Shown here piece after piece: positions 1-59,912 of a stretch of 59,912 nt of DNA. Every line of letters starts with the position of its first letter. Position 1 is the first letter of the stretch. Below the pieces are notes generated by a model that had not been told where the DNA came from, did no database searches, and saw only the letters and a list, made by a program, of their open reading frames with translations. The position numbers were made by a program, and so were the translations under genes. This stretch comes from a virus (lineage: Duplodnaviria; Caudoviricetes): positions 1-59,912 of the IMG/VR virus record IMGVR_UViG_3300025770_001265; one strand, given 5' to 3'.

Positions 1-300
1 CAGTAGCTCCTCAGAAAGTAGCTCTAGTAGTTCTATTACTGCTGGTAGTAGTGCTAGTAGCTCATCAGAAAGTAGTTCCAGTAGCTCCTCAGAAAGTAGC
101 TCTAGTAGTTCTATTACTGCTGGTAGTAGTGCTAGTAGCTCATCAGAAAGTAGTTCTAGCTCCTCAGAAAGTAGTTCTAGCTCATCAGAAAGTAGTTCCA
201 GTAGCTCCTCAGAAAGTAGCTCTAGTAGTTCTATTACTGCTGGTAGTAGTGCTAGTAGCTCATCAGAAAGTAGTTCCAGTAGCTCCTCAGAAAGTAGTAG
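1..300 (+). repeat. 78-bp tandem repeat (copies at 1, 79, 199) with 21-bp subrepeats
   Basis: Unit cagtagctcctcagaaagtagctctagtagttctattactgctggtagtagtgctagtagctcatcagaaagtagttc recurs; all unit lengths are multiples of 3. Confidence 0.9.
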
Positions 301-322
301 CTCTAGCTCGCTTACTATTTAA
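1..322 (+). CDS. 3' end of a Ser-rich protein (partial, starts before the window)
   Basis: Frame 2 reads SSSSESSSSSSITAGSSASSSSESSS...SSSSLTI then TAA at 320-322; same low-complexity style as the two downstream giant proteins. Confidence 0.75.
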   Translation, partial: SSSSESSSSSSITAGSSASSSSESSSSSSSESSSSSSITAGSSASSSSESSSSSSESSSSSSESSSSSSSESSSSSSITAGSSASSSSESSSSSSSESSSSSSLTI

Positions 323-4733: not shown

Positions 4734-7700
4734 ATGAAACCAAAGGATCTAATTAATAAACGCGGTGTAATATCCGTAGAGCAGGGCAAGAAAATCAAGG
4801 GCGGCGTAGATACGGGAGAACTTGCTTGGACTGTAAAAGTTATTAAAAAAGAAGAAGTTTCAGAGGAAGATCGTATACCAGCTTCTGTAGATGACGAAAT
4901 AGGTATAACTGACGTTGTCGAAGGTTACGTAATAAGACCTCTTGCAGTAGACCCACAAAATAGCGGTACTGCTGCAGCAGGGCATGGAGAAAAACATACG
5001 CCAATCAGAGGTGGTATATCTATAGGGTCGCATAAAAACGGAGCATGGGGAGGAACTGGGACAATGGCTGGCTTTGCAAAGGGAGCTTTAGATGGTGAGC
5101 TTTGTGGGGTAACTAATAACCATGTAGTGGGTTTAGTTTATGACCCAAGTTTGTCTGTGATAGACACGACATTACTTACCCAACATTGTCCGGATTTCAT
5201 ACCTAGTACTAATCCAGATTTGGTGGGTAGGGGTATAATGACAGGCCAACCTGGGATTGCAGATCAACAAGGGAATGGATTTAATACTTTAGGTTCTGTA
5301 AAATACGTACATCCATTTAATATTAAGAAACTTTATGATTCCGTTAGTATTCCCGATAATTATGTCGATGCTGCTTTATTTGATTTAGCGGGTACGCATC
5401 AGTCAGATTACTTTCCTACATCACAACTTTATGATTCAGCTCCTTTGGGGCTTAATCCTAATACACTACCTATATTTGATTTCAATAACTTCCCCTTAAC
5501 GGATAATCAAGATTACGAGATAATCAAGATAGGAAGAACAACAGGGAGAACGCCAACGTTAAGTGACTCTGTAGCGCTTGCAAACGCGGGTATTGGTTAC
5601 ATACCCACCAAAGCAATATCTGGCATAAGTAGTGCAAATATCATAATGTGCGACTCCGGAGGGGTATATGACGTTACTGCTATATTTTCAGACATAATTA
5701 AAGTTTGGATACCTAATTCTGGCACGAGAGGCGTTCGACAAGATTTTAGTAATTCTGGAGATTCTGGCGCTTTAGCATGTATTAAATGGGATGGTGAGTG
5801 GTATATTCTTGGGTTAGTGTTCGCAGGAACTGATCCAGAAAATGGTCAATCTGAGACTTTCATATGTCGTATAGATTATGTAATGAAGGTCTTGCAAATT
5901 GGATCTCATTGGACTCCCGATACTGCACTGCGTAGTAATTTTACTGATCTTTCTGACGTATCACCTGCTTGGGGTGTGGGTAAGTTATGGGATGGTTCTA
6001 TAATAGTGCCTAAAGCTATAACTAGTGATTTTATAAAACTCAACGACGGAGGAACCGGATTTTCAGGGGGAGTATATAATACAAAATCCAGGTATAGAAA
6101 ACTTAAGAGGGTGCGGAAAGATGGTACACATTATCTACAGCCAGCTAATTATGGAGCTGCAAGCTCAGTAGATGAGGTTGAAGCGCTGGTAGTTACAGTT
6201 GGGTCGCACTCAAATCCTGGGCCTACAAATGCGTATTATGTAGATGGGGTTGAGCGTCCTGAATTTGCATGGGATAGAGGAAAAACCTATAAACTCAATT
6301 TAACAAATGTACCCTATACACACCCATTTGCTATAGTTGATGATGATACAAGCCAAGTATTACTTCAAAATCAAAATGGGAGTATAGTAGACTTTACAGT
6401 ACCGTACGGAGTTGGACCTAAAAATATTATTAGATATGAATGCCAAGCTCATGTAGGTATGGGCTCTAATATTAGAATAGGTGCAGGAGCTGCTTTTGTA
6501 AGCTCATCTTCCAAGTCCTCCAGATCCAGTAGCTCTAGCTCCAAGTCCAGTAGCTCCTCCAAGTCCAGCTCCAAGTCCAGTAGTAGTTCCTCTAAGTCCA
6601 GCTCCAGTAGCTCTAAGTCTAGTAGCTCCAAGTCCAGTAGTTCTAAGTCCAGTAGCTCCTCTAAGAGTTCATCAAGTTCGTCAATTACATCTTCTAGGTC
6701 CAGTAGTTCCTCCAGATCTAGTAGCTCTAGCTCCAAGTCCAGTATTAGTTCCTCTAAGTCCAGCTCTAGCTCTTCACAAAGCTCATCTAATTCCTCAGTA
6801 AGTAGCGTTTCTAGTAGCTCGAGTGATGGCCCACTTGCGCTTAATGACTCTAACTTCAATAGCGCGATTACCCTATACTGTAAGCCAGCCAATTATGGTG
6901 GGGATCAAGCCCTGGCTATTCAAACTTATGGTTTGATTGAGTACTGGGATGTTTCTGCCGTGACTAATATGAGCATGGCATTCGGTACCTCCCAGACGGG
7001 TTATAGCCAATTGAATAGCGGACTTTACGGATATAAGGACTTTAACGAGGACATAAGTAGATGGGACACGAGTAGCGTAACAAATATGGGAGGTATGTTC
7101 TGGGCCTGCCAAGCCTTTGACCAGGATATCAGTACTAAACAAGTTACCGTAAATGGTAATACCTATACTGCGTGGGACACTAGTAATGTTGAATATATGG
7201 GCTCCATGTTTCGTCATGATGCCTGGCCTGGGTACGGTAACTTCAATCAGGACATAGGAAACTGGAATACCAGCAAAGTAAAAACGATGGACTCCATGTT
7301 CCGTAAATGGGGGACCTCATCCTACGACGCCTACGGCTTCAGTCATGATATCAGTACTAAACAAGTTACTGTAGGTGGCTCAACCTATACAGCCTGGGAT
7401 GTAAGTAGCGTGGAGGATATGAACTACATGTTCTTCCATAATAAAGTGTTCAATCAAAATATAGGAAATTGGGATACCAGTTCGGTTGCTAACTTCAAGA
7501 GTATGTTCAGTAGCGCAGAAATCTTTAACCAGGACATAAGTACAAAACAAGTTACTGTAGGTGGCGCCACCTACACAGCCTGGGATACATCTGCAGCGAC
7601 GAACATGAACATGATGTTCCACACCACAAGTGCTTTCAATCGAAATATATATAACTGGGATGTTACTGGTGTAACTGATTGTAATACTTTTTCATACCAA

Positions 7701-9341
7701 ACACCCGCAGCATGGAGGACAGTACATAAGCCCTTCTTTACAAACTGTAATCCTGCTACGTATACGCCAGCAAGTAGTTCCAGTAGCTCTAAGTCCAGTA
7801 GCTCCTCAGGAAGTAGCCGTTCTAGTAGTTCCAGTAGCGATAGTTCCCAATCCAGTAGGAGCTCCTCTAGCCATGCAGGTCCGCAAGTTCAGGTATATAA
7901 TGTGGGAGGGCCGTGCAACAATGTAGGAACTCATCCTAACTACACTGGGTGCACCGGCAGCGCGCCAATAATAGTGTGGCATGCAGGTGGAATTCCTTTA
8001 CCTAACCCTACCTCTAATTCATTCGTTGAATTTAAGCATTCCGGACCGGGTACACTCTTGCACGGTGGTAATTGGGTAACAATAGCCAGTGCGCAAAACA
8101 GCACAGGAGTTTACCAACCCAATGACCAACCAGATACTGCTGGATCGGGAACGGTTCTCACCATTGATGGAGTGGGATTCCATACTTTTGAGTTTCGTGG
8201 CACTCTCAATGGAGTTGTAGGCCCCATCGACACTGTCTACTACAACACAGGATATTCCAGCAGCTCCAGTAAGAGCTCCTCTAGTTCCTCCGAATCCAGC
8301 GCTAGCTCACAAAGTAGTAGCAATTCAAGTGCAAGCTCAATGACTGTATCGACGATTACAGGCTACATGACTTTACAGCTTAATGCAGATTATATGGTTT
8401 CAAGTTACGATTCAGGCGATATTCACTCGACTGTAATGGGTCCGCAGGCCAACCCGTGGGGGACTCATCTTGGCTACTGGTCCGGAACTGCTATTGGTAA
8501 AGGCTTCTCTGGGACGCCACCTACATATCAGCTCGTCTACGATGAGTTAGGGCAGTACGGAAAGCACCAATGGGACGTCTATGATATAGCATATGGCGAG
8601 CCAAATTCGACTCGATATGACAATAGATGGAGTGAATTTATGACATGCAGTATAAGGTGGCGTGAACCGATCAATGCTTGGGAAATGACGAATTTTGTTT
8701 TCGACAGCAGTAACAGTTACGTAGCCACTAACGTACTACACACCAACCATCCTGATAATGCGGAAGATAACAATTTTGAAATGCCTGTAAGGCGAGATGG
8801 AACTTCGCTTCGCTGGATCCCGCTTACCGGTGGCCTTGGATCCCCGCCGATTGATAGCACGGCATGGGGAGGAACTGGGACTTACTACAACTACCCAAAT
8901 ACATGGGGCCGTGAAGTAGACCAACAAGGACGTGGCATTAGTTTAGTTGTCGCCAACCCCACATGGGTGTCACCAACAATTGCGGTTACTGGAGTGGGCG
9001 GGGGACCCGCGTCGGGTGGCTCACTGTCGCTGGGCCTAGCCCCAGTAATAACGTATACCACCTCCGTTGCGCCAGCGTCCGTTGAATTTCGAGTAGAACA
9101 AGGACCTAGTGGCACTTGGCCGCAGAACTGGTTATTCGGCGGTAATTGGCAATCAATAAATCTAAGTAACTTTAGCGCAGGAACTTACCAACCATCGGAT
9201 CCCGCAACTGGAGTGGTTATAGATATGACTGGTAGCGCCTCAGGATGGCCTTTTAAAGGATTGCATGAATGTGAAATGCGTTGCACTGACGCACAAGGAA
9301 ATATAAGTACCGTCGAATACTTCGATTTTACCTTAGTATAA
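4734..9341 (+). CDS. Giant modular protein: Nal1-like trypsin-fold serine protease, cupredoxin-like motif, Ser-rich linkers and DUF285/BspA-like repeats
   Basis: Prodomain-like GKKIKGGVDTGELAWTVKVIKK...IP...TDVVE; catalytic triad TNNHV / VDAALF / GDSGA; HPF...YECQAHVGMG; repeats WDTSSVTNMGGMF, FNQDIGNWNTSKVKTMDSMF and 3x DISTKQVTVxGxTYTAWD. Confidence 0.8.
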   Translation: MKPKDLINKRGVISVEQGKKIKGGVDTGELAWTVKVIKKEEVSEEDRIPASVDDEIGITDVVEGYVIRPLAVDPQNSGTAAAGHGEKHTPIRGGISIGSHKNGAWGGTGTMAGFAKGALDGELCGVTNNHVVGLVYDPSLSVIDTTLLTQHCPDFIPSTNPDLVGRGIMTGQPGIADQQGNGFNTLGSVKYVHPFNIKKLYDSVSIPDNYVDAALFDLAGTHQSDYFPTSQLYDSAPLGLNPNTLPIFDFNNFPLTDNQDYEIIKIGRTTGRTPTLSDSVALANAGIGYIPTKAISGISSANIIMCDSGGVYDVTAIFSDIIKVWIPNSGTRGVRQDFSNSGDSGALACIKWDGEWYILGLVFAGTDPENGQSETFICRIDYVMKVLQIGSHWTPDTALRSNFTDLSDVSPAWGVGKLWDGSIIVPKAITSDFIKLNDGGTGFSGGVYNTKSRYRKLKRVRKDGTHYLQPANYGAASSVDEVEALVVTVGSHSNPGPTNAYYVDGVERPEFAWDRGKTYKLNLTNVPYTHPFAIVDDDTSQVLLQNQNGSIVDFTVPYGVGPKNIIRYECQAHVGMGSNIRIGAGAAFVSSSSKSSRSSSSSSKSSSSSKSSSKSSSSSSKSSSSSSKSSSSKSSSSKSSSSSKSSSSSSITSSRSSSSSRSSSSSSKSSISSSKSSSSSSQSSSNSSVSSVSSSSSDGPLALNDSNFNSAITLYCKPANYGGDQALAIQTYGLIEYWDVSAVTNMSMAFGTSQTGYSQLNSGLYGYKDFNEDISRWDTSSVTNMGGMFWACQAFDQDISTKQVTVNGNTYTAWDTSNVEYMGSMFRHDAWPGYGNFNQDIGNWNTSKVKTMDSMFRKWGTSSYDAYGFSHDISTKQVTVGGSTYTAWDVSSVEDMNYMFFHNKVFNQNIGNWDTSSVANFKSMFSSAEIFNQDISTKQVTVGGATYTAWDTSAATNMNMMFHTTSAFNRNIYNWDVTGVTDCNTFSYQTPAAWRTVHKPFFTNCNPATYTPASSSSSSKSSSSSGSSRSSSSSSDSSQSSRSSSSHAGPQVQVYNVGGPCNNVGTHPNYTGCTGSAPIIVWHAGGIPLPNPTSNSFVEFKHSGPGTLLHGGNWVTIASAQNSTGVYQPNDQPDTAGSGTVLTIDGVGFHTFEFRGTLNGVVGPIDTVYYNTGYSSSSSKSSSSSSESSASSQSSSNSSASSMTVSTITGYMTLQLNADYMVSSYDSGDIHSTVMGPQANPWGTHLGYWSGTAIGKGFSGTPPTYQLVYDELGQYGKHQWDVYDIAYGEPNSTRYDNRWSEFMTCSIRWREPINAWEMTNFVFDSSNSYVATNVLHTNHPDNAEDNNFEMPVRRDGTSLRWIPLTGGLGSPPIDSTAWGGTGTYYNYPNTWGREVDQQGRGISLVVANPTWVSPTIAVTGVGGGPASGGSLSLGLAPVITYTTSVAPASVEFRVEQGPSGTWPQNWLFGGNWQSINLSNFSAGTYQPSDPATGVVIDMTGSASGWPFKGLHECEMRCTDAQGNISTVEYFDFTLV

Positions 9342-24063: not shown

Positions 24064-26232
24064 ATGATTATAAATAAAATAAAATTAAAAAATTTTGGTG
24101 CGCATAAAAATATTAATTTTGAGACTAATGGACAGCGTGTTATAGGATTACTTGGTAAAAATGGATCAGGAAAAAGCACAATATTAAATGCCATTAAATT
24201 TGCGTTTACAGGCGACATAGAGGGTACTATAGAATCTAACCTCCGCCATGGCAGCACTACAGGTTCGGTTGAGATAGAGTTTGTAAAAAATAATGAAACT
24301 GGACGTATTAATAGATCGGTAGGTAAAACGTCTAAGGCAAATTTAACCTGGCGTGGTAAATCTTACAGTGTTAAAAAAGAAATTGAGTTTGTGCTATTAG
24401 AGCTGTTAGGTGTAGATAAAAAGTCACTATCTAATGCTGTATTCCTCAATCAAGGAAGTTTAAACAGAATCTTATTTGGTTCAGACGCAGATAGAGAAGA
24501 GCTATTTATTAAAGTTATGAATGTCTCGTACTGCCAGAAGTTTGCAGATATTCTAGATCAAAAAAGTAAAACATTAAAAGATGCAAATGATTCAGCACTA
24601 GTAGTAGACGAGCTTAATAGACAACGAATAATACTATCGGAAAAAATAGATTCACATAGAGAAGATTTAGCTAATTACCCCAATTGTGATAGTGAAATCG
24701 AAACTTTAGAAACTCGTGAAAAATTAATAAACTTACTTGTCGGTTCAATAAATAAAATTAATGAAGATAAAAATTTATTAGCACAGTATACACAAGAGTT
24801 AAAAACTATAATAGATTCTGATTTTGAAGAAGTGTCTGAACATCAAAAGAAAATTGAAGATGCAAATAAAGAGTTATTTCAAGTCAAAGAACGTATTAAA
24901 CTCCAGACGAGTATAAACCGCATAAAAGTCCCACTCGAAGATCTTACTGCCTCGATTTCATCGTTACGAGAGGATCATACTAGGACCAAGATAGAATTAG
25001 ATCATTTAGAAAGTCAAAAAGATGTGCATGATAAGTTAAAAGAAGAAGCTAATAAATTGGAATTTGAGCACGAACAAATGTCAAAATGGCTAGCAATACA
25101 AAAAGAAGCTTTTGATTCGTATGAGAATGCTGACGACACTAAAAGCCAGTGTTTTAAATGCGGACTACTAGTATCGCGTGTCACAGAATCTGAGTTAAAT
25201 AAATTAATACATCTCTGTAGATCTTTGGGGGACGAAGCTTGCTATAAGAAAAATAAGTTTAGGGAATTCAAAAATCTCTACGATAGTGCGTGTAAAAAAG
25301 AATTAGAGGCATATGAATTTTTAAATGACACTATTAAAGAATGTGCTAACTTGGAACAACAGCTTTCGGATCTTGATTCAACTCCAGTAATCGGAAAATT
25401 GGATAATTCTTCTGTAGATTTCTTACATAATTTAAAGTTGAGTAAAGAAAAATCTATATCGAAGTTATCTGAAAGACTCGAATACATACTAGAATTGACT
25501 AATAAGAAAACGAAATTTGAAACACTTGTACAAGAGAAAAATACAGCTATTGAATCTGGAACTTCTGCTGTTGAAGAGATCCAGAAACAGCTAGACTCCC
25601 TACCTACGTACGGAAAGGAGATTAGTCACTATAAAGGTGTAAACAGTCTGAGAAATGAAACTCGAGGAAAGATTGAAGAATTACAAAGCCAGCTAACCGA
25701 CACAAGTAAAAGGCATGGTGAGTTACTCGAAGAGAATGATGAGTCGGAGCGTAAGAAAATAATATATAGTGAGTTAAAAAAGTTAAAGGATATATTTTCA
25801 AGAAAAGGATTACCTAAGTCTTATGTTGACTCTAGATTTAGCATATTGACTGAATTGACTCAAAAGAATCTTGAAACCTTAGAAACAGATTTTTTTATAA
25901 ACCAGTCTCAAGAAAAATCTTTAGCCTTTGACTATACTATAGTGTACGACGGCGACAATATAGAACTACCCATGAATAAACTATCCGGAGGTCAAAGAGT
26001 TCGGTTGAGTTTGGCCTTTATATTAGCTGTCCAGCAGTTAATCGTGGCTGAGCTGGGTTTTATTACTCTTGACGAGCCTTCTACTCATTTAGATGAAGAA
26101 GGTGTTGACAGTCTGTGTAATTTGTTAAAAAAAGTACGTGATGTATTTGCAGACTCAGAGCACCAACTTTGGGTGTGTGATCATAATCCAAAACTTGAAG
26201 CTGCTTTTGATAAAATTTTAAAACTTACGTGA
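24064..26232 (+). CDS. sbcC: SbcC/Rad50-like SMC ATPase
   Basis: Walker A GKNGSGKST, Q-loop LNQG, coiled coil with zinc hook CFKCG, signature LSGGQ, Walker B TLDEPSTHLD, H-loop CDH. Confidence 0.92.
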   Translation: MIINKIKLKNFGAHKNINFETNGQRVIGLLGKNGSGKSTILNAIKFAFTGDIEGTIESNLRHGSTTGSVEIEFVKNNETGRINRSVGKTSKANLTWRGKSYSVKKEIEFVLLELLGVDKKSLSNAVFLNQGSLNRILFGSDADREELFIKVMNVSYCQKFADILDQKSKTLKDANDSALVVDELNRQRIILSEKIDSHREDLANYPNCDSEIETLETREKLINLLVGSINKINEDKNLLAQYTQELKTIIDSDFEEVSEHQKKIEDANKELFQVKERIKLQTSINRIKVPLEDLTASISSLREDHTRTKIELDHLESQKDVHDKLKEEANKLEFEHEQMSKWLAIQKEAFDSYENADDTKSQCFKCGLLVSRVTESELNKLIHLCRSLGDEACYKKNKFREFKNLYDSACKKELEAYEFLNDTIKECANLEQQLSDLDSTPVIGKLDNSSVDFLHNLKLSKEKSISKLSERLEYILELTNKKTKFETLVQEKNTAIESGTSAVEEIQKQLDSLPTYGKEISHYKGVNSLRNETRGKIEELQSQLTDTSKRHGELLEENDESERKKIIYSELKKLKDIFSRKGLPKSYVDSRFSILTELTQKNLETLETDFFINQSQEKSLAFDYTIVYDGDNIELPMNKLSGGQRVRLSLAFILAVQQLIVAELGFITLDEPSTHLDEEGVDSLCNLLKKVRDVFADSEHQLWVCDHNPKLEAAFDKILKLT

Positions 26233-26705
26233 TATACAAGATTAAGATAACGTTTACCACAAATTTTCTTGGGGGAGGCGATAGAGACAAAAAAACCTCT
26301 GTTCGCTCCCTCAAGAAAACGGATGACGGGTTAGTTGAATTTCACGACCAAGAATTTAAAAAAACTACTGAGTTAGTATTAAAGCAACTAAATATTAATT
26401 TAAATGTCGAGAAGCTAAAAATACCGAATGGATTCAATGCCAGTGGTAGAATATCAGTTTTACGGCGAGTATATAATAAAGTTAATATAGATTTGTTTGA
26501 AGGAATTAAACGAGGTAATTCTGTAACTATGCAGTTGCTATATAATGATACTTCAGACAAAAGTCCGTCTGCAGACGACATCAAAAAAATAATGTCTGTG
26601 TTTGGGAAGTTCCACGGAATTTCTCAGTGGGGGCGTAAGTTTAACTGCGGTAGATTCGTAGTTAATTACGCTAAAATATTAAATTCAGAAAACTATGAGT
26701 GTTAA
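26229..26705 (+). CDS. Small protein with RAMP (Cas7/Cas5-like) hallmarks
   Basis: N-terminal strand YKIKITFTTNFLGG and C-terminal G-rich loop GKFHGISQWGRKFNCGRFVV. Confidence 0.45.
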   Translation: MIYKIKITFTTNFLGGGDRDKKTSVRSLKKTDDGLVEFHDQEFKKTTELVLKQLNINLNVEKLKIPNGFNASGRISVLRRVYNKVNIDLFEGIKRGNSVTMQLLYNDTSDKSPSADDIKKIMSVFGKFHGISQWGRKFNCGRFVVNYAKILNSENYEC

Positions 26706-28140
26706 ATTTCATTGGTATGATACGGTACTTGTGATTGAGAATCCTACAGCCAAAATGGAAAAATTTTTAGTGTGGGATAAGAAAAAATTAGTTCTTGATA
26801 AAAGAACATTTACAAGAAGATCTAAAATTGAAAAAGTAAAACTTTTTAATGTTTGGCATGAAGGTAGTAAAAGAAAAGGTCGTGTAATTGAAACTCCACA
26901 CGGCTTTAAAGATCAATTAATATTAATGTGTAAGAAGGAAGGGGAAAAATGGGAGTTATTCGATAAACGTATTCCCGTAAAGGCGCCAAAATTAGGTTTG
27001 ACTGGAGGATTTAGACTTGAACAGCAACCACTATTCGAAGAATTTATTGGTAAAAATCAATCTGGAATACTACAGGCTCCAACGCGTTATGGTAAGAGTA
27101 TAATGATAATAAACACCATGCGTGCATTTCCTAATATGAAAACAGTTGTTGCCGCTCCGGGTGTAGATTTACTAAATCAAACTGTAGATGATTTTAAAAA
27201 AGCATTGCCTGAACGTGATATTAAAGGAGTGTTTACCGGCAGTAAAAATAGAACGCAGTCTGCAGATATAACAATATGTAGTTTAGATTCCCTACATAAA
27301 ATGGATACTGAGGGTACTCATTTATTATTGATCGATGAGCCGCACGCTGCTGTTAGCGAGACAAGAGCACCTGTAATAGCTAGATTTAAAAATGCTAGAA
27401 TTTATGGTTTTGGCGCAACGTTAACAGGTAGGTATGATAATGCGGACAAGTTACTCACCGGACTAGTAGGTCCAGTACTAGCAAAACGTACATTTAGAGA
27501 GGCTGTAAGTGAAAATGCGATATGTGACATTGAAGTCTATATGGTACGTTTTCCTTTTGAGGCTTTCTCTTGTCGTAAACGAGAATTAGCTTATAAGCGT
27601 TTATTGTACGAAAATCAAATATTCATAGACGCAGTAGGTTCTATAGCAAATAGTGTTTTACCTAAAAACTGGCAGACTATAATATTCGTAGATCAACAGA
27701 AGCAGGCAGACTTATTGGCGGATAATATTGACGAAGCAAAGACCGTAATAGCCGGTAGAATGAAAATCAAAGAGCGTAAAGAAACGTTTCAAAACATGGT
27801 AAATAATCATGTGAAACGTTGCATCTGTACTGATGTATATGCGCAAGGCGTGACATTCCCAGACTTACGGGTAATGATAAATGCTGCAGGAGGAGGTGGG
27901 TCTATATCTAGTACGCAGAAACCAGGCAGGTTGGCTCAGATTAGAGAAAATAAGAATTGTGGTTATTTAGTAGATTTTTTATTTGAATGCTCAAACCCAC
28001 CTAAGCCTGAAGATAATGTACGTGGAGCAGACCTATGGCGTATGGTAGCTAATGATAGTATGCTAAGGTTACGCCAGTATGATAAATTGGGTTACAAAAT
28101 AAATGTAATCAATTCACTAGCTGAGATAACTATGACATGA
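26695..28140 (+). CDS. Superfamily 2 helicase (UvsW/ResIII-like)
   Basis: QAPTRYGKS, LIDEPH, FGATL, QGVTFPDL and QKPGRL motifs. Confidence 0.88.
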   Translation: MSVKFHWYDTVLVIENPTAKMEKFLVWDKKKLVLDKRTFTRRSKIEKVKLFNVWHEGSKRKGRVIETPHGFKDQLILMCKKEGEKWELFDKRIPVKAPKLGLTGGFRLEQQPLFEEFIGKNQSGILQAPTRYGKSIMIINTMRAFPNMKTVVAAPGVDLLNQTVDDFKKALPERDIKGVFTGSKNRTQSADITICSLDSLHKMDTEGTHLLLIDEPHAAVSETRAPVIARFKNARIYGFGATLTGRYDNADKLLTGLVGPVLAKRTFREAVSENAICDIEVYMVRFPFEAFSCRKRELAYKRLLYENQIFIDAVGSIANSVLPKNWQTIIFVDQQKQADLLADNIDEAKTVIAGRMKIKERKETFQNMVNNHVKRCICTDVYAQGVTFPDLRVMINAAGGGGSISSTQKPGRLAQIRENKNCGYLVDFLFECSNPPKPEDNVRGADLWRMVANDSMLRLRQYDKLGYKINVINSLAEITMT

Positions 28141-56822: not shown

Positions 56823-57413
56823 ATGACAGAAGAATATAATATAAAGGATGTAGTAGAAGTTCTCTCAACCCTTGCGGTTGGAATAGGTGAGATGGGTAGT
56901 AATATGCGGGATATCTCAAATGCTGTTGGCTTAATCGCTACTAATAGCCAAGAGTTAACTGCGATTAAACATCGCCTCAGTCATCTGACTGAGACTAGCG
57001 AGCAAATTGCGTCAGCATTTGTGTTTGATCAAAAGTCTAATAAAGCGGGTGCGGTGTATCATATGGCGGGTAGTTTAAACTCTATCAAATTTGCTATGCC
57101 AGGCTACAGTCCTAATCCCCAAGGGAAACAACACAATCAACAGCCTATGTCTACCATGGACAATGACCGCAAGCGAGGCGTACGCTACACTGAAGCTCAA
57201 CACGAGCAATTTCGAGTAGCACGACAGCAACAGTATCGTCCTGACGAAAGGGCTATTGATCAACCTGTTGTTCATACTAATCTGGAGGATGCAACTAGGT
57301 TATCTGAACCTACAGCACAGAATCTAGCTAATCAAAATGATACTACAGCTCCGGCAACGCAGGAGGACATGTACTCTCTAAAAGAAAGCTTGAATATTAA
57401 GAAGACACAGTAG
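56823..57413 (+). CDS. Hypothetical protein
   Basis: 196-aa ORF. Confidence 0.65.
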   Translation: MTEEYNIKDVVEVLSTLAVGIGEMGSNMRDISNAVGLIATNSQELTAIKHRLSHLTETSEQIASAFVFDQKSNKAGAVYHMAGSLNSIKFAMPGYSPNPQGKQHNQQPMSTMDNDRKRGVRYTEAQHEQFRVARQQQYRPDERAIDQPVVHTNLEDATRLSEPTAQNLANQNDTTAPATQEDMYSLKESLNIKKTQ

Positions 57414-57444
57414 TGCAATTTAACCACGTACTGTGTTAAATATA
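57414..57444 (+). promoter_or_regulatory. Putative phage promoter, copy 6 (upstream of the ncRNA array)
   Basis: TGCAAT-17nt-TAAATA, preceded by GTGT. Confidence 0.65.
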
Positions 57445-57508
57445 ACTAGTAAGTGCGTAACTTTTGAATTGTCCTCAGTCGATAATATAAAACAATAAGC
57501 GCTTATAC

Positions 57509-57626
57509 ACGGACCTGGCACCTGCAATCAAAAAATAAGAAACCACTAATCAGGCAGCAATGCCTGTGCATCCTCCTTACGAATTGAGAGGATATAAAAT
57601 AAAACCAAATTCAAAACCAGGTCTGT
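57509..57626 (+). ncRNA. Structured RNA unit 1 (closing stem, CCUGCA motif, two inner hairpins)
   Basis: ACGGACCTGG/CCAGGTCTGT 10-bp stem; CAGGCA-GCAA-TGCCTG GNRA hairpin; ATCCTC/GAGGAT hairpin; A-rich linkers. Confidence 0.6.
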
Positions 57627-57840
57627 AATTTACAGGGTAAAGGATGGTGATAACCGACAGAAAGCTACAAGGCAGAGCAGTGCCTAGTATGCTGCCAAGG
57701 CACCATTCCGGTATGCGAGATTATAATGCGCCACAAGCAAAGTGGGTCCTATACCTACGCGCACTCTATACCACCCTACACTTTATAACTCAGGATGCCC
57801 CCTGTCATCCATAAGGTAGCGAGTGCTACTAACAGGGACC

Positions 57841-57956
57841 ATTTGTCGAATAAGTGAGTTCAAATCTCACCGTCCCAACCTTAAACGCCTTAGCGAAGAG
57901 CCTGCCGAAAGGTGGTTGGGTAAGCCGTAGCAGTTATCTGGAATGCACCGACAATT
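57841..57956 (+). ncRNA. YrlA-like Y RNA (circularly permuted tRNA mimic)
   Basis: Closing stem TTGTCG/CGACAA with GTCGAA; T-arm GTGAG-TTCAAAT-CTCAC; closed acceptor-like stem CCCAACC/GGTTGGG; then TA plus D-arm GCA-GTTATCTGGAA-TGC. Confidence 0.65.
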
Positions 57957-57958
57957 TT

Positions 57959-58015
57959 TCTGACCCATACTGCATAAACAACCAAACAAATAAAACTGGT
58001 TCCAAAAGGGTCGGA
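57959..58015 (+). ncRNA. Structured RNA unit 2 (stem plus ACUGCA motif)
   Basis: TCTGACCC/GGGTCGGA stem, ATACTGCATAAA, inner AACCA/TGGTT, AAAA before the 3' strand. Confidence 0.6.
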
Positions 58016-58021
58016 CTCTAC

Positions 58022-58077
58022 GCAGACGCTAACAGCATAAAAATTCATACCAAACCAATGAAAAAAAATGCGTCTGC
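58022..58077 (+). ncRNA. Structured RNA unit 3 (stem plus ACAGCA motif)
   Basis: GCAGACGC/GCGTCTGC stem, TAACAGCATAAAA, inner TTCAT/ATGAA, A-run before the 3' strand. Confidence 0.65.
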
Positions 58078-58090
58078 ACTAAAAGACAAT

Positions 58091-58168
58091 TTGGAAGGGG
58101 AAGGGACGGAGTCAAACTGTAGTTGAGTTCCCGCTCAGCTCGACGGCTCTGCCCTTCCATCCTTCCAA
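58091..58168 (+). ncRNA. Structured RNA unit 4 (22-bp interrupted stem plus ACUGUA)
   Basis: TTGGAAGG/CCTTCCAA, GGAAGGG/CCCTTCC and CGGAGTC/GGCTCTG, then AAACTGT and inner AGTTGAG/CTCAGCT. Confidence 0.6.
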
Positions 58169-58181
58169 TTACAATTTCACA

Positions 58182-58275
58182 CGAAGGCCTGTTAGCCCTC
58201 GCTTATAAACACCTTGGGGAAGGGATATGGAGACATTGTTTATAAGTTGAGGGCTTAGGTTTCGCCCTTTTTTTT
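58182..58275 (+). ncRNA. Long interrupted hairpin followed by a U-tract (RNA unit and/or terminator)
   Basis: CGAAGGCCT/AGGTTTCG, AGCCCTC/GAGGGCT and GCTTATAAACA/TGTTTATAAGT, then CCC and T8. Confidence 0.55.
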
Positions 58276-58307
58276 AACCACTAATAATATCAACAAAAGG
58301 ATTAGCT

Positions 58308-59912
58308 ATGATGGAACCAGCGCAAAGCCCACTTCTTAAGGGGCTAGAAGAAAACTTAAGTAATATGACAACCACCGAAAACGGAGCTCTAGCATATAAG
58401 AGATCCGGAAATGAATTGGTTGATGCCTTCGAAAGAATCGGAGGAAGTAGACAAGACCCAGAAGCATTCTGGTCAATATTCTTAGCCGCCTATTATACAG
58501 ACGCTTTAAAAGCTCTGAAAATTCTCTTCTACGGGAGAAACCCTCGAGGGGGTATGGGCGAGCGTCAGTTGTTTAGACACACGATCAGCAACATGGCAAG
58601 TAATGCGGATCCTCAATTAGTTGAGCATCTTATAATGAATCTTGGTAATATTTCCTTACTTGGGAGATGGGATGATTTATTGTGCTTGATTGATGAGAAA
58701 CGCCAGATCGACGATCATGGACCTACTGTCGGAAAGATGGTTATGGACTATTTAGGTTATTCACTTTCTAGAGATCTAGGAATTGACCCCGAACATCGAA
58801 ATAGTCCTATATCGCTTTTAGCTAAATGGCTACCAAGCGATAATACCTCTAGTAGGAAAACGAGAGCCTTGGCTTCCAAGTTGAAGAAACAATGGGGAAT
58901 GTCCTCTACTGAGTATAGAGGGATATTAAAGAAACTACGCCAACAACTTGGTGATGCTGTCGTAGAGACTAAAATGTCCAGAAAGAAGTTTGAGACCATT
59001 GATTTCTCCAAGGTATGTTCCAAGGCCATGCTGACTTATAGCAAAAGTTTCCTTAAGCACGACTTAGAGCGTTATGAGGCTTGGCAGTTAGATGTTGCTG
59101 AAGGAAAGTCCAAAGTGAATGCTAGCGTACTATACCCCTATGAGATTGTACGTAGTGCACATCAAGTAGACCTGATTCGGGAAGAAAGTGCATTAGCTGA
59201 ATCAGAGATACTCTCTCTGGATAATCAATGGAACGCATTGCCTGACTATCTAACGGCTGAAGATGGCTCCAAGACAAATGCCTTGGCAGTTATTGACGTA
59301 TCTAGCAGCATGCATCAGATAGTATCCGGCAAGACATCGGCTATGGACGTTGCTATAAGTTTGGGGATTTATATCGCACAAAGATGTAGCAATGCCTTTC
59401 AAGGTAGTTTCATGACTTTTGCGAGTAATCCTAGCCTAGTCCAATTAGAGGGTGATAACATTGTCGATATAATTCACAATGTAGCTGGAGCTGACTGGGG
59501 TGGTTCAACTAATCTGATAGCCTCATTCGAACTCATTCTAAAGGTTGCAAAGGAAAAGCAATTAGATCAAAAGGATCTGCCGGAATGGATATTCATCCCA
59601 TCGGACTGTGAGTTTGATTACCAGGTTCGTATATCAGATGAAGATCATGAAATGACACCTCATCAAACTATCGCAAGAAAGTTTACAGAGGCAGGGTATG
59701 TCATACCTAAGCTTGTCTATTGGAATCTTTGCTCTCGTCAGCAACAAGTTCCAATGAGTCATAATGACTACGGTATGATGGTATCAGGTTTCTCACCAGC
59801 CATTCTCAAAGCAGTTTTCGCTGCTAAGGAGATTACTCCGACTGATGTAATGGAAGCAGCCATTAACGATCCTGTTTATGACTGCATAAAGATAGATACG
59901 AACGTCGTCCAA
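58308..59912 (+). CDS. DUF2828-like Ro60/TROVE-related vWA protein (runs off the window end, nearly complete; absent from the ORF track)
   Basis: Manual translation from ATG 58308: TTTENGALAY, RNPRGGMGERQLF, GRWDDL, LLAKWLPS, VNASVLYPYEIV, QWNALPDY, MIDAS-like VIDVSSSM, AISLG, WGGSTN, SDCEFD, VYWNL, SGFSP. Confidence 0.85.
   Translation, partial: MMEPAQSPLLKGLEENLSNMTTTENGALAYKRSGNELVDAFERIGGSRQDPEAFWSIFLAAYYTDALKALKILFYGRNPRGGMGERQLFRHTISNMASNADPQLVEHLIMNLGNISLLGRWDDLLCLIDEKRQIDDHGPTVGKMVMDYLGYSLSRDLGIDPEHRNSPISLLAKWLPSDNTSSRKTRALASKLKKQWGMSSTEYRGILKKLRQQLGDAVVETKMSRKKFETIDFSKVCSKAMLTYSKSFLKHDLERYEAWQLDVAEGKSKVNASVLYPYEIVRSAHQVDLIREESALAESEILSLDNQWNALPDYLTAEDGSKTNALAVIDVSSSMHQIVSGKTSAMDVAISLGIYIAQRCSNAFQGSFMTFASNPSLVQLEGDNIVDIIHNVAGADWGGSTNLIASFELILKVAKEKQLDQKDLPEWIFIPSDCEFDYQVRISDEDHEMTPHQTIARKFTEAGYVIPKLVYWNLCSRQQQVPMSHNDYGMMVSGFSPAILKAVFAAKEITPTDVMEAAINDPVYDCIKIDTNVVQ

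What the first reader, a model, noticed from the sequence alone, without database searches (positions are those of the whole stretch)
57509..58151. Structure-level repeat: unrelated stems all followed by C(A/T)G(C/T)A
Seen: four units with different stem sequences but the same architecture - closing stem, a short spacer, then CCTGCA (57521), ACTGCA (57969), ACAGCA (58032) or ACTGTA (58116), inner hairpin(s), a short usually A-rich strand and the 3' stem. Stem sequences change while pairing is kept, so a sequence-repeat finder would miss this. Inference: a recurring protein-recognition site, most simply for the adjacent DUF2828 protein. Each unit could be a small RNA with a common handle and variable cargo, or the set could be an autoregulatory leader or sponge. 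The fourth copy is the weakest.
Basis: partly seen in the sequence, partly recalled or inferred. Interest (0 to 1): 0.8.

Follow-up and report, generated by a model that had tools for sequence, protein, structure and literature searches.

The report
Phage Ro-like protein's partner small RNAs
Three small folded RNAs encoded just upstream of a phage gene for a Ro60-like ring protein belong to, or closely resemble, an apparently undescribed RNA family found beside that gene in phages of many unrelated bacteria, which points to a new kind of virus-made RNA-protein particle.

Summary
U1 (57509-57626), U2 (57959-58015) and U3 (58022-58077) are stem-closed RNAs with C(A/T)GCA three bases after the 5' strand: 3 such units against 0.07 in shuffles of the region. 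The 5-mer alone is not significant, the stems share a GAC/GUC core, and the fourth 'unit' is an unrelated long hairpin.

The same architecture recurs beside DUF2828 genes in other phages: a closing stem with conserved A-U and G-C pairs at its base, then CAGCAA, a variable interior and an A-rich tail. A covariance model built only from other phages hits U3 (E 4e-5) and nothing else in the window. All 108 training-set hits and all 76 hits in an independent set lie on the gene's strand, none inside the gene. All 9 stem pairs covary. Three tRNA-rich phages without DUF2828 have none.

The DUF2828 protein models as a Ro60-like ring plus vWA domain. The best reading is Y-RNA-like partner RNAs with a common handle and variable cargo. 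The association is shown; binding is inferred. Rfam and the searchable literature hold no such family.

The parts
57509..57626 (+). U1: 118-nt stem-closed unit. It has a 10-bp closing stem (57509-57518 with 57617-57626), CCTGCAAT at 57521-57528, two inner hairpins (57551-57566 with a GCAA loop, and about 57570-57593), and an A-rich run before the 3' strand. It is a possible divergent family member.
   Evidence: The fold gives z -4.2, and the stem-plus-motif scan finds it. Neither model R1 nor R2 hits it, and it is not significantly similar to U2 or U3. In a 95-99% identical natural variant (run X7), all changes inside U1 fall outside the closing stem and the motif. Two insertions, after 57551 and after 57565, together add a U-G pair to the inner hairpin (mapped by reading the sequence).
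57634..57776 (+). Branched structured domain of unknown kind, between U1 and the tRNA-like piece.
   Evidence: The MFE gives z -2.6. There is no Rfam match and no similarity to any fetched locus. A contig of an RNA library covers it (X6, 57635-57776).
57795..57880 (+). Two hairpins followed by a tRNA-like 'top half'. It has a T-arm (5-bp stem, TTCAAAT loop) at 57854-57870, flanked by GGGAC (57835-57839) and GTCCC (57872-57876). The hairpin at 57816-57829 is followed by TA-ACAGGGAC, which resembles the 'hairpin + TA-ACAGCAA' insert seen in tRNA-like elements of other loci.
   Evidence: The features were read from the sequence and the fold (z only -1.2). ARAGORN finds no tRNA and Rfam has no match at gathering score. 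The only similarity of the gap to other loci is this T-arm. The X7 variant carries different sequence after 57837. The assignment is tentative.
57959..58015 (+). U2: 57-nt unit with an 8-bp closing stem, ATA, then CTGCATAAA, a 5-bp inner hairpin with a 12-nt loop, and CCAAAA before the 3' strand. It is a paralogue of U3 and a probable divergent family member.
   Evidence: (z -2.2). The global alignment to U3 gives z 3.2, with 5 of 1000 shuffles as high. R2 gives 7.9 bits and E 0.45 in 1.1 kb, in the expected register but not significant; R1 gives no hit. The X7 variant has only a 4-nt deletion in the inner loop.
58022..58077 (+). U3: 56-nt unit and a secure member of the DUF2828-associated family. 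It has an 8-bp closing stem, TAA, then CAGCATAAAAA, a 5-bp inner hairpin with a 9-nt loop, and an A8 tail.
   Evidence: R1, built only from other phages, gives 32.6 bits and E 4.4e-5 over the whole window on both strands, and it is the only hit at E up to 10. R2 gives 37.2 bits and E 8.7e-8. The fold gives z -4.8. RNA-library contigs cover it (X3 57840-58102 and X6 57894-58085).
58091..58168 (+).
   Evidence: The fold gives z -6.0. Neither model hits it, and it is not similar to U2 or U3.
58182..58275 (+). Long terminal hairpin (58182-58264) followed by GCCC and a run of 8 T (58268-58275). It is a likely end of the noncoding transcription unit, 33 nt before the gene's start codon.
   Evidence: The fold gives z -3.4 and the T-run is visible in the sequence. 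The consensus terminator scan did not call it, so this is inferred.
58308..59912 (+). Gene for a DUF2828 + DUF7788 (vWA-like) protein with a Ro60-like fold. It runs off the contig end and lacks its last 5 codons.
   Evidence: Pfam gives DUF7788 at 2.5e-44, DUF2828 at 2e-33 and VWA_2 at 8.9e-4. It matches phrog_850 'RNA-binding protein' at 1.6e-105. The full-length form P0001 has 540 aa. The AlphaFold2 model has pLDDT 90.9. The 12 matches listed at ranks 1-13 of the PDB search are all Ro60, Rsr or phage phiLo Ro60, with E from 4.8e-8 to 1e-4, TM normalised by the query 0.33-0.59, and 528-590 aligned columns.

Best explanation
The 894-nt gap upstream of the DUF2828 gene is a cluster of small structured RNAs read on the + strand. 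Three of them (U3 certainly, U2 probably, U1 possibly) belong to a widespread phage RNA family that travels with DUF2828 genes.

Each member has a 'handle' and a 'cargo'. The handle is a 7-9-bp closing stem whose second and third pairs are almost always A-U and G-C, followed 0-3 nt later by single-stranded CAGCAA (CUGCA or CAGCA in the window). The cargo is a variable interior, often a small hairpin, and an A-rich tail closes the stem.

The DUF2828 protein has the ring-plus-vWA fold of Ro60. The most likely mechanism is therefore the Ro60/Y-RNA one. The protein recognises the conserved stem base and the adjacent single strand. The variable interior then tethers or mimics something else. In about a third of family members elsewhere the interior is an anticodon-stem-loop look-alike, which points to tRNA metabolism, repair or tRNA-directed host defences.

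What is shown: the structures, the family, its covariation, and its strand- and position-specific linkage to the gene. What is inferred: transcription and processing into separate small RNAs, binding by the protein, and the downstream function.
For: **Structure in the window**
- The + strand folds with z -5.2 and the - strand with z -2.0.
- There are 3 stem-plus-motif units against 0.072 in shuffles, with 0 of 1000 shuffles reaching 3.

**The family**
- An unbiased scan of both strands of 87 loci (557 kb) found 162 units on the gene's strand and 36 on the other.
- The structure-free handle pattern NAGRY-N4-6-CWGCAA occurs 304 times on the + strand and 13 times on the - strand in 160 DUF2828 loci (913 kb).
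- Model R1 was built from 44 units of other phages. It gives 108 of 108 hits on the + strand: 73 upstream, 35 downstream and 0 inside the gene, in 51 of 86 sources.
- In an independent set of metagenome loci, 76 of 76 hits are on the + strand. After dropping 4 duplicate loci, 71 hits remain in 45 of 76 loci: 60 upstream, 11 downstream and 0 inside the gene. Of the 60 upstream hits, 41 lie within 200 nt of the gene.

**Covariation**
- All 9 pairs show changes on both sides.
- 227 cells have such changes, against 83 +/- 9 in shuffles.
- 89.7% of cells are paired, against 33-46% when the partners are slid.
- Pair 2 is A-U in 91 of 94 rows and pair 3 is G-C in 92 of 94.

**Reverse test**
- An RNA-only pattern search returned 80 viral loci. 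32 of them carry DUF2828, all on the same strand as the unit, and mostly 24-600 nt away.

**Whole records**
- 20 of 20 hits in 840 kb lie within 4.3 kb of the gene, and 19 of them within 0.9 kb.
- T5, T4 and Bxz1 have no DUF2828 and many tRNAs, and give 0 hits in 447 kb.

**Breadth**
- 10 of 16 cultured-phage loci have hits. Their hosts are Synechococcus, Mycobacterium, Listeria, Staphylococcus, Enterococcus, Bacillus, Escherichia, Klebsiella and Aeromonas.

**Window membership**
- U3 is the only R1 hit in the window (E 4.4e-5).
- U2 aligns to U3 with z 3.2.

**The protein**
- It has a Ro60-like fold.
- Its Listeria phage homologue CKA15_055 was matched to D. radiodurans Rsr by HHpred and was detected in purified virions (PMC12282133, passages read).

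**Expression (weak)**
- Contigs of two metatranscriptome runs from two studies cover 57408-57620, 57635-57776 and 57840-58102 without a difference.

**Natural variant**
- All X7 changes inside U1-U3 fall outside the closing stems and motifs.
Against: - No experiment or computation here shows that the protein binds these RNAs.
- Only U3 passes the family model. U2 scores 7.9 bits (E 0.45), and U1 is not detected.
- Many DUF2828 loci have no hit within 2.5 kb at E up to 0.01: 35 of 86 training sources and 31 of 76 test loci.
- 6 of 16 cultured-phage loci have no hit, including KVP40, where the gene sits in a gene-dense stretch.
- The units also live among tRNA genes, so part of the linkage could be to tRNA clusters rather than to the protein.
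- The seeds were chosen for a perfect stem, and the covariation alignment was fitted to the model. The percentage of paired cells is therefore partly by construction.
- The RNA-library contigs cannot show strand, ends or true transcription, and DNA carry-over is possible.
- The window's units lack the anticodon-loop-like cargo seen elsewhere.
Confidence: 0.6

Rival explanations
1. The units are autonomous miniature tRNA mimics or decoys of phage tRNA clusters. Examples would be sponges for host anticodon nucleases or substrates of tRNA enzymes. On this reading they sit near DUF2828 only because that gene also lives in the tRNA or RNA-repair neighbourhood, and the protein does not bind them.
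For: - The units are interleaved with tRNA genes (106 Rfam tRNA hits in 18 loci).
- 32 of 94 distinct family members carry a hairpin with a 7-nt YU-NNN-RN loop, against 3.25 +/- 1.6 in shuffled interiors. The strict form CU-NNN-AA occurs in 17 of 94, against 0.35.
- Longer members contain T-arm-like hairpins (listing).
- tRNA-like elements of 110-130 nt carry the same handle in place of the anticodon arm.
- An RtcB ligase gene lies nearby in Listeria phage LP-083-2.
Against: - T5, T4 and Bxz1 have large tRNA sets but no DUF2828, and show no hit.
- Inside whole genomes the units hug the gene rather than spreading through the tRNA array: 19 of 20 lie within 0.9 kb.
- The window has units but no detectable tRNA gene in 60 kb.
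- A conserved sequence handle is more easily explained by a dedicated binding protein.
Confidence: 0.17
2. The units are cis-acting operators in the leader of the DUF2828 mRNA. The protein, or another factor, binds them to control its own synthesis or transcript stability, and they do not act as free small RNAs.
For: - Many units lie directly before the start codon. 22 of 73 upstream hits are within 100 nt of the gene, and 41 of 60 are within 200 nt in the test set.
- The units always lie on the gene's strand.
Against: - A third of training-set hits (35 of 108) and 11 of 71 test-set hits lie downstream of the gene.
- Arrays of 2-6 units occur, some up to 4.3 kb away.
- In the window a long hairpin plus a T8 run separates U3 from the gene.
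- In Listeria phage cka14 the three units have their own TTGACA-17-TATCAT promoter-like site (read by eye).
Confidence: 0.13
3. It is a DNA-level element, such as a recombination or homing site or a promoter or terminator set, or a chance pattern.
For: The conserved handle is a sequence motif that could in principle be read as DNA. The 5-mer alone is at chance frequency.
Against: - Long-range pairing (35-130 nt apart) is kept through double changes at all 9 pairs.
- The strand asymmetry is 304 to 13.
- No hit falls in coding sequence.
- 0 of 1000 shuffles reach the observed count.
Confidence: 0.03

Closest known systems
Y RNAs and Y-RNA-like RNAs bound by Ro60/Rsr, including phage cases (Yrl1 and Yrl2 of Thermus phage phiLo; Y RNAs near Ro60 in mycobacteriophages)
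   Same: - They are encoded next to, and on the strand of, the gene for a Ro60-fold ring-plus-vWA protein, often as several copies upstream.
- The 5' and 3' ends pair into a stem that closes a large internal loop, with a short conserved motif at the stem that serves protein binding.
- The sources are PMC4201824 and PMC12135203 (passages read).
   Different: - The protein is a different Pfam family: DUF2828 plus DUF7788, with no TROVE hit at E up to 0.01.
- The conserved RNA features differ. Here they are A-U and G-C pairs at the stem base plus CAGCAA; in Yrl RNAs they are a bulged helix with a CGAA motif (PMC12135203).
- Most members are shorter: 45-65 nt against the 80-130 nt stated for Y RNAs in PMC4201824.
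- No Rfam family matches, at gathering score or at E up to 10.
YrlA, the tRNA-mimicking bacterial Y RNA
   Same: - Both share the theme of tRNA mimicry beside a Ro-type protein and RNA-repair genes.
- Family members elsewhere carry anticodon-loop-like or T-arm-like hairpins.
- Some tRNA-like elements carry the handle.
- The window has a T-arm-like hairpin at 57854-57870.
   Different: - YrlA keeps T- and D-arm look-alikes, and its ends form the Ro-binding stem (PMC4201824).
- Here the short units lack both arms and keep an acceptor-like stem. In the longer elements the handle replaces the anticodon arm.
- The window's U1-U3 have no tRNA-like cargo.
Abundant noncoding RNAs of Listeria phage CKA15, proposed to be Y RNAs (PMC12282133)
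   Same: - The protein family is the same: CKA15_055 is a DUF2828 homologue.
- The authors speculate that highly transcribed noncoding regions within 2 kb upstream are its Y RNAs.
- Three family units lie in the unannotated gap directly upstream of CKA15_055, at record positions 25290-25552.
   Different: - The one region whose coordinates the text gives (26236-26727) is a different noncoding stretch, about 0.7-1.2 kb further upstream, with no model hit.
- The paper defines no motif or structure.
- I could not tell whether the unit gap is one of its two other 'unannotated' hot regions. The text gives no coordinates, and supplements are closed.
Small stable RNAs in phage tRNA clusters (for example T4 rnaC, 'species 1 RNA')
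   Same: They are small stable RNAs of unknown role encoded among phage tRNA genes (annotation seen).
   Different: T4 has neither DUF2828 nor any model hit.

Membership tests
DUF2828-associated 'CAGCAA-handle' RNA (family defined here; models R1 and R2) | Significant score against a covariance model built from other phages' units | tested here: met
   U3 scores 32.6 bits, E 4.4e-5 (R1, whole window), and 37.2 bits (R2). This is not met by U2 (7.9 bits, E 0.45), U1 or the fourth hairpin.
DUF2828-associated 'CAGCAA-handle' RNA (family defined here; models R1 and R2) | Closing stem of 7-9 bp with A-U and G-C as second and third pairs | tested here: inconclusive
   U3 has C-G, A-U and G-C, so it meets this. 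U2 has U-G and U1 has G-U at the second pair, where the family has A-U in 91 of 94 rows.
DUF2828-associated 'CAGCAA-handle' RNA (family defined here; models R1 and R2) | Single-stranded C(A/U)GCAA starting 9-11 nt from the first stem base, and an A-rich tail before the 3' strand | tested here: met
   U3 has CAGCAU at position 11, U2 has CUGCAU at position 11, and U1 has CUGCAA at position 13. All three have A-rich tails.
DUF2828-associated 'CAGCAA-handle' RNA (family defined here; models R1 and R2) | On the strand of a DUF2828 gene and within about 2.5 kb of it | tested here: met
   U1-U3 lie 231-799 nt upstream of the gene on the + strand.
Y RNA (Rfam Y_RNA; Ro60-bound RNAs) | Match to the curated RNA model | tested here: not met
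   No Rfam match to any Y RNA family at E up to 10 in 57300-58400, nor at gathering score in the window.
Y RNA (Rfam Y_RNA; Ro60-bound RNAs) | Terminal stem carrying the conserved Ro60-binding helix or CGAA-type motif | tested here: not met
   A terminal stem is present, but the conserved nucleotides are different: a GAC/GUC core and CWGCA. The CGAA motif is as described in PMC12135203.
Y RNA (Rfam Y_RNA; Ro60-bound RNAs) | Bound by a Ro60 (TROVE) protein | not testable with these tools
   The neighbouring protein has a Ro60-like fold but no TROVE Pfam hit. Binding needs an experiment.
tRNA | Cloverleaf recognised by ARAGORN or the Rfam tRNA model | tested here: not met
   ARAGORN finds 0 genes in the window, and there is no Rfam tRNA hit. 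Only a T-arm-like hairpin is present, at 57854-57870.
Ro60/TROVE protein family (for the adjacent gene) | HEAT-repeat ring plus C-terminal vWA domain | tested here: met
   The AlphaFold2 model has pLDDT 90.9. The matches listed at ranks 1-13 of the Foldseek PDB search are all Ro60, Rsr or phiLo Ro60, over 528-590 aligned columns, with E down to 4.8e-8.
Ro60/TROVE protein family (for the adjacent gene) | Sequence match to the TROVE domain model or to solved Ro60 chains | tested here: not met
   Pfam lists only DUF7788, DUF2828 and VWA_2. A phmmer search against PDB sequences finds no Ro60.

The most novel reading that the evidence does not exclude
These units are the window's representatives of an undescribed class of phage 'handle-plus-cargo' small RNAs that spans host phyla. 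On this reading they are miniaturised tRNA mimics: an acceptor-like stem, a CAGCAA handle where the D-arm would be, and often an anticodon-stem-loop as cargo. They would load onto a DUF2828 Ro-like ring, which at least in one Listeria phage is carried in the virion. The particle would then decoy, or organise the repair of damage from, host defences that cut or modify tRNAs.
Probability: 0.2. Interest if true: 0.9.

Novelty: new variant of a known kind. Interest (0 to 1): 0.8.

Why it matters
DUF2828 proteins have no known function, yet they occur in at least 705 deposited phage genomes. These include relatives of phages used for biocontrol and therapy: Listeria P100/A511-like, Felix O1-like, and Staphylococcus and Enterococcus myoviruses.

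Finding a conserved, covarying RNA family welded to the gene turns 'unknown function' into a concrete, testable RNA-protein particle hypothesis. It also extends the Ro60/Y-RNA principle to a second protein family with a different RNA recognition code.

The finding supplies a searchable model (handle plus closing stem) for annotating dozens of small RNA genes that are now unannotated or mis-called as tiny ORFs. The anticodon-loop-like cargos suggest a link to the current question of how phages cope with tRNA-targeting immunity.

Tried and rejected
**Known RNA families**
- Rfam gave nothing for the window gap at E up to 10, and nothing for the window at gathering score.
- In 18 DUF2828 loci it gave only tRNA.
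- At E up to 1 on canonical units it gave only tRNA and chance-level rows.
- ARAGORN found no tRNA or tmRNA.

**Close relatives of the window's gap**
- blastn of the gap against phage records found nothing.
- The single-protein scan of viral contigs gave one spurious locus, L001.
- The single-protein scan of metagenome contigs gave none.
- blastn of the gap against all 208 fetched loci found only the T-arm.
- So U1, U2, domain B and the fourth hairpin have no comparative support beyond one 95-99% variant.

**Protein by sequence**
- phmmer against PDB sequences found no Ro60. Only the fold search did.

**The 5-mer as a signal by itself**
- Rejected.

**ACWGCATAAA**
- There are 3 exact copies in the window, at 57969, 58032 and 59881. 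With one mismatch it is at chance level: 10 copies against 13.5 expected.

**Model hits for U1, U2 and the fourth hairpin**
- U1 and the fourth hairpin gave none; U2 was not significant.

**'Local hairpin followed by CWGCA' as a general class**
- It is not strand-biased overall: 71 on the + strand and 59 on the - strand.
- Only the subset with a T-arm downstream (33 of 71 on the + strand) looks real. The - strand was not scored for T-arms.

**Equating the units with the most abundant CKA15 RNA**
- Rejected. That region (26236-26727) lies about 0.7-1.2 kb further upstream and has no model hit.

**A promoter for the window's cluster**
- TTGAAT-16-TATAAA at 57464-57491 was seen by eye.
- The scan does not list it, and the X7 variant changes its third -10 base.
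- This is left open.

**RNA-library contigs**
- Parts of the stretch had no cover in X3, X6 and X5. Nothing is concluded from these.

**Earlier notes of this scan**
- Nothing relevant turned up.
Full report
**Setting.** The window is a whole 59,912-base phage contig. It carries a large terminase, a DNA polymerase and a helicase by PHROGs. Near-identical DNA is found in marine metagenome runs.

Between ORF 56823-57413 and the gene at 58308 lies an 894-nt gap. ARAGORN finds no tRNA in the window. No listed ORF in the gap exceeds 90 aa, and none of them was searched against Pfam.

The gene encodes a DUF2828 + DUF7788 (vWA-like) protein. It matches phrog_850, annotated 'RNA-binding protein'. It lacks only its last 5 codons, since the full form P0001 has 540 aa and is recorded on contigs of up to 174,825 bases.

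**The observation.**
- The + strand of the gap folds far better than shuffles (z -5.2, 0 of 20 shuffles as good). The - strand does not (z -2.0).
- Folding the pieces separately confirms U1 (57509-57626, z -4.2), U2 (57959-58015, z -2.2) and U3 (58022-58077, z -4.8). Each is a closing stem around a large A-rich loop with inner hairpin(s). The fourth piece is a long, almost perfect hairpin (z -6.0).
- A scan for 'stem of at least 8 bp, at most 3 nt, then C[AT]GCA, span 35-130' finds U1-U3, each with a spacer of exactly 3 nt. Elsewhere in the window it finds 1 on the + strand and 4 on the - strand.
- In 1000 dinucleotide shuffles of the gap the mean is 0.072, and none reaches 3.
- The 5-mer alone is unremarkable: 7 copies against 3.9 +/- 1.9 in shuffles, and 604 copies in the window.
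- U2 and U3 are paralogues (alignment z 3.2, 5 of 1000 shuffles as high). U1 and the fourth hairpin are not similar to them.
- The stems share a GAC/GUC core, so they are not 'unrelated'.

**Where it led.** The closest cultured relative of the protein (36% identity) is in Synechococcus phage B3.
- Its 230-nt gap before the gene holds two units of the same build, one with ACAGCATAAAAA right after its stem.
- I fetched 80 DUF2828 loci from viral contigs with a protein alignment, plus six phage records. The scan above, run on both strands of all 87 loci then held, gave 162 units on the gene's strand and 36 on the other.
- The + strand units share features the scan did not ask for. They start with W-A-G-R. 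They carry CAGCAA(U) at a fixed 9-11 nt from the first base. They have an A-rich tail. They lie directly before or after the gene, often 2-6 in tandem and among tRNA genes.

**Model and statistics.**
- From 44 trimmed units of other phages I built model R1, with a 9-bp closing stem.
- Over 86 sources (599 kb) it gives 108 hits at E up to 0.01. All 108 are on the gene's strand: 73 upstream, 35 downstream and none inside the gene. They fall in 51 of 86 sources.
- On the resulting alignment all 9 pairs show double-sided changes. There are 227 such cells against 83 +/- 9 in shuffles. 89.7% of cells are paired against 33-46% with slid partners. Pair 2 (A-U in 91 of 94 rows) and pair 3 (G-C in 92 of 94) are conserved.
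- Caveat: the seeds were chosen for perfect stems and the alignment is fitted to the model. The strand, position and unselected sequence features are therefore the cleaner evidence.
- The structure-free pattern NAGRY-N4-6-CWGCAA occurs 304 times on the + strand and 13 times on the - strand in 160 loci (913 kb).

**Independent tests.**
- *Metagenome loci.* 80 further DUF2828 loci from metagenome contigs give 76 R1 hits, all 76 on the gene's strand.
  - Without 4 loci that duplicate training contigs, 71 hits remain in 45 of 76 loci (60 upstream, 11 downstream, 0 inside).
  - Nine loci in all share an identical 60-mer with training loci. By the table, the five not already excluded hold 2 of these hits.
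- *Reverse direction.* An RNA-only pattern (one stem variant plus CAGCAAT) found 116 stretches in viral contigs, of which 80 were listed as loci.
  - 32 of the 80 carry a DUF2828 homologue, always on the unit's strand.
  - Of the 48 pattern matches in the loci without a homologue, 14 look genuine: longer stem, A-rich tail and same-strand tRNAs nearby. The other 34 look like chance 6-bp matches in coding sequence.
- *Whole records.* In five records (840 kb) all 20 hits lie within 4.3 kb of the gene, and 19 within 0.9 kb. For two of these records only 150 of the first-look candidates were scored.
- *Controls.* T5, T4 and Bxz1 have many tRNAs and no DUF2828, and give 0 hits at E up to 0.05. KVP40 has the gene but no hit, and there the gene sits in a gene-dense stretch.
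- *Cultured phages.* Across 16 cultured-phage loci, 10 have R2 hits, and all 26 hits are on the + strand. Their hosts are cyanobacteria, actinobacteria, four Firmicutes genera and three proteobacterial genera. The three T4-like (Straboviridae) loci tested (PX29, KVP40, EniLVp02), a Campylobacter phage, a Sinorhizobium phage and an Erwinia jumbo phage have none.

**The window against the family.**
- R1 hits U3 (58023-58076, 32.6 bits, E 4.4e-5) and nothing else in 120 kb of both strands at E up to 10.
- With filters off on 57300-58400, U3 is the only convincing R1 hit. The remaining rows, at E 1.1-4.4, are the reverse strand of U3 and an inner hairpin of U1.
- R2, rebuilt from the 108 hits, gives U3 37.2 bits. 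It gives U2 7.9 bits (E 0.45) in the right register, and nothing for U1 or the fourth hairpin.
- My grading is therefore: U3 is a member, U2 is its diverged paralogue, U1 shares architecture and motif only, and the fourth is not a member.

**A natural variant.** A 95-99% identical variant (run X7) changes U1-U3 only in interiors and tails. Two insertions in U1's inner hairpin together add one U-G pair. The same variant carries a roughly 160-nt insertion at 57786 and different sequence after 57837, so the cluster is modular.

**The protein.**
- An AlphaFold2 model from 43 homologues is confident (pLDDT 90.9, pTM 0.91).
- The 12 matches listed at ranks 1-13 of its PDB search are Xenopus and human Ro60, D. 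radiodurans Rsr and Thermus phage phiLo Ro60. They are aligned over 528-590 columns, with E from 4.8e-8 to 1e-4 and TM normalised by the query 0.33-0.59. After them come isolated vWA domains.
- Sequence methods do not see this.
- Some mycobacteriophage records already call the homologue 'Ro-like RNA binding protein'.

**Cargo.**
- 32 of 94 distinct hits carry a hairpin of at least 4 bp with a 7-nt YU-NNN-RN loop, against 3.25 +/- 1.6 in shuffled interiors. The strict form CU-NNN-AA occurs in 17 of 94, against 0.35.
- Longer members include T-arm-like hairpins.
- 'tRNA' hits of 110-133 nt next to the units were examined. In most of them the anticodon arm is replaced by a hairpin plus UA-ACAGCAA.
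- The window's own units do not show such cargo. Nearby there is only a T-arm-like hairpin at 57854-57870, preceded by a hairpin and TA-ACAGGGAC.

**Expression.**
- Contigs from two metatranscriptome runs of two studies cover 57408-57620, 57635-57776 and 57840-58102 without a difference. Contigs cannot show strand or ends, and DNA may be present, so this is weak support.
- In Listeria phage CKA15 (PMC12282133, passages read) the homologue CKA15_055 matched Rsr by HHpred and was found in purified virions. The authors suggest that three highly transcribed noncoding regions within 2 kb upstream may be Y RNAs.
- I located three family units in CKA15 at record positions 25290-25552, in the unannotated gap directly upstream of the gene.
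- In the sister phage cka14 a TTGACA-17-TATCAT site precedes them (read by eye).
- The one region whose coordinates the paper gives (26236-26727) is a different noncoding stretch, about 0.7-1.2 kb further upstream.

**Comparison with what is known.**
- The nearest system is Ro60 with its Y RNAs, including the phage example phiLo. There, two Yrl RNAs upstream of the gene have a 5'-3' stem around a large bulge with a CGAA motif, and bind the protein (PMC12135203, passages read). Y RNAs also lie next to Ro60 in more than 250 bacteria and phages (PMC4201824, passages read).
- A jumbo-phage survey mentions ROT/TROVE proteins as RNA-repair platforms with a tRNA-like partner (PMC7824862, passage read).
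- The present RNAs work like Y RNAs in layout and neighbourhood. They fail the membership tests: no Rfam match, different conserved nucleotides and a different protein family.

**Is it in print?**
- A full-text search for 'DUF2828' returned 5 papers, none on RNA.
- Searches for Y RNA/Rsr/YrlA/bacteriophage, for Ro-like/phage/tRNA/noncoding RNA, and for Ro60/bacteriophage/RtcB/tRNA found nothing describing this motif.
- Subscription papers and supplements were not searchable.

**Verdict.** What is there is a cluster of small structured RNAs. At least one is a secure member of a widespread, covarying and apparently undescribed family tied to a Ro60-like phage protein. Binding and function remain to be shown.

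Noticed in passing
L079:4080-4199 and 4374-4485; L076:4181-4300; L087:4002-4117 and 4836-4955; L066:4078-4196; L028:1840-1952; L035:367-493; L002:5863-5972: Elements of 110-127 nt pass the Rfam tRNA model, with acceptor, D and T arms intact. In place of the anticodon arm they carry a local hairpin followed by UA-ACAGCAA, the same handle as the units. B3's copy is annotated 'tRNA-Pseudo-GCA'. They alternate with units downstream of DUF2828 genes.
   Followed up: partly
distinct hits of alignment A4 (for example L074:3931-3987, L025:2073-2136, L064:5112-5172, L033:2344-2403): About a third of family members (32 of 94) carry an anticodon-stem-loop look-alike. The 7-nt loops are of the form CU-NNN-AA, and the most frequent 'anticodons' are UUU, UUG and GUU. 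Shuffled interiors give 3.25 +/- 1.6.
   Followed up: partly
L290:887-1378 (Listeria phage cka15, record 26236-26727): This is the most highly transcribed region of phage CKA15 according to PMC12282133. It is a noncoding stretch of about 490 nt behind a TTGACA-17-TATAGT site, next to a tRNA-Pro gene. Model R2 does not hit it. The Rfam search at gathering score of the related phage LP-083-2 locus (L007), where the corresponding stretch was placed by estimate, found only tRNAs. Its nature is open.
   Followed up: partly
window 57786 and 57838-57956: A 95-99% identical variant in an estuary DNA run (X7) has about 160 extra bases at 57786 and unrelated sequence after 57837, and picks up again at 57957. 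The tRNA-like module of the cluster is therefore swapped between close relatives.
   Followed up: no
window 1-309, 2880-3542, 3951-4008 and 6516-6659: Tandem repeats with periods of 9-132 nt, rich in AGT/AGC/TCC (serine codons in the ORF frame), lie inside the very large ORFs 369-4709 and 4734-9341 and in the 5'-open ORF at the contig start. These are low-complexity repeat proteins, and most of the excess CAGTA 5-mers come from here.
   Followed up: no
L209 (Vibrio phage KVP40, record 168283-169719), L006, L295: In the three T4-like (Straboviridae) phages checked, the DUF2828 gene sits in gene-dense context with no model hit nearby. Either the RNA partners are elsewhere or too diverged, or this lineage does without them.
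   Followed up: partly
L007:5854-7065 (Listeria phage LP-083-2): An RtcB-like RNA ligase gene lies about 1.3 kb downstream of the DUF2828 gene on the same strand. This echoes the rsr-Y RNA-rtcB arrangement of bacterial RNA-repair operons.
   Followed up: no
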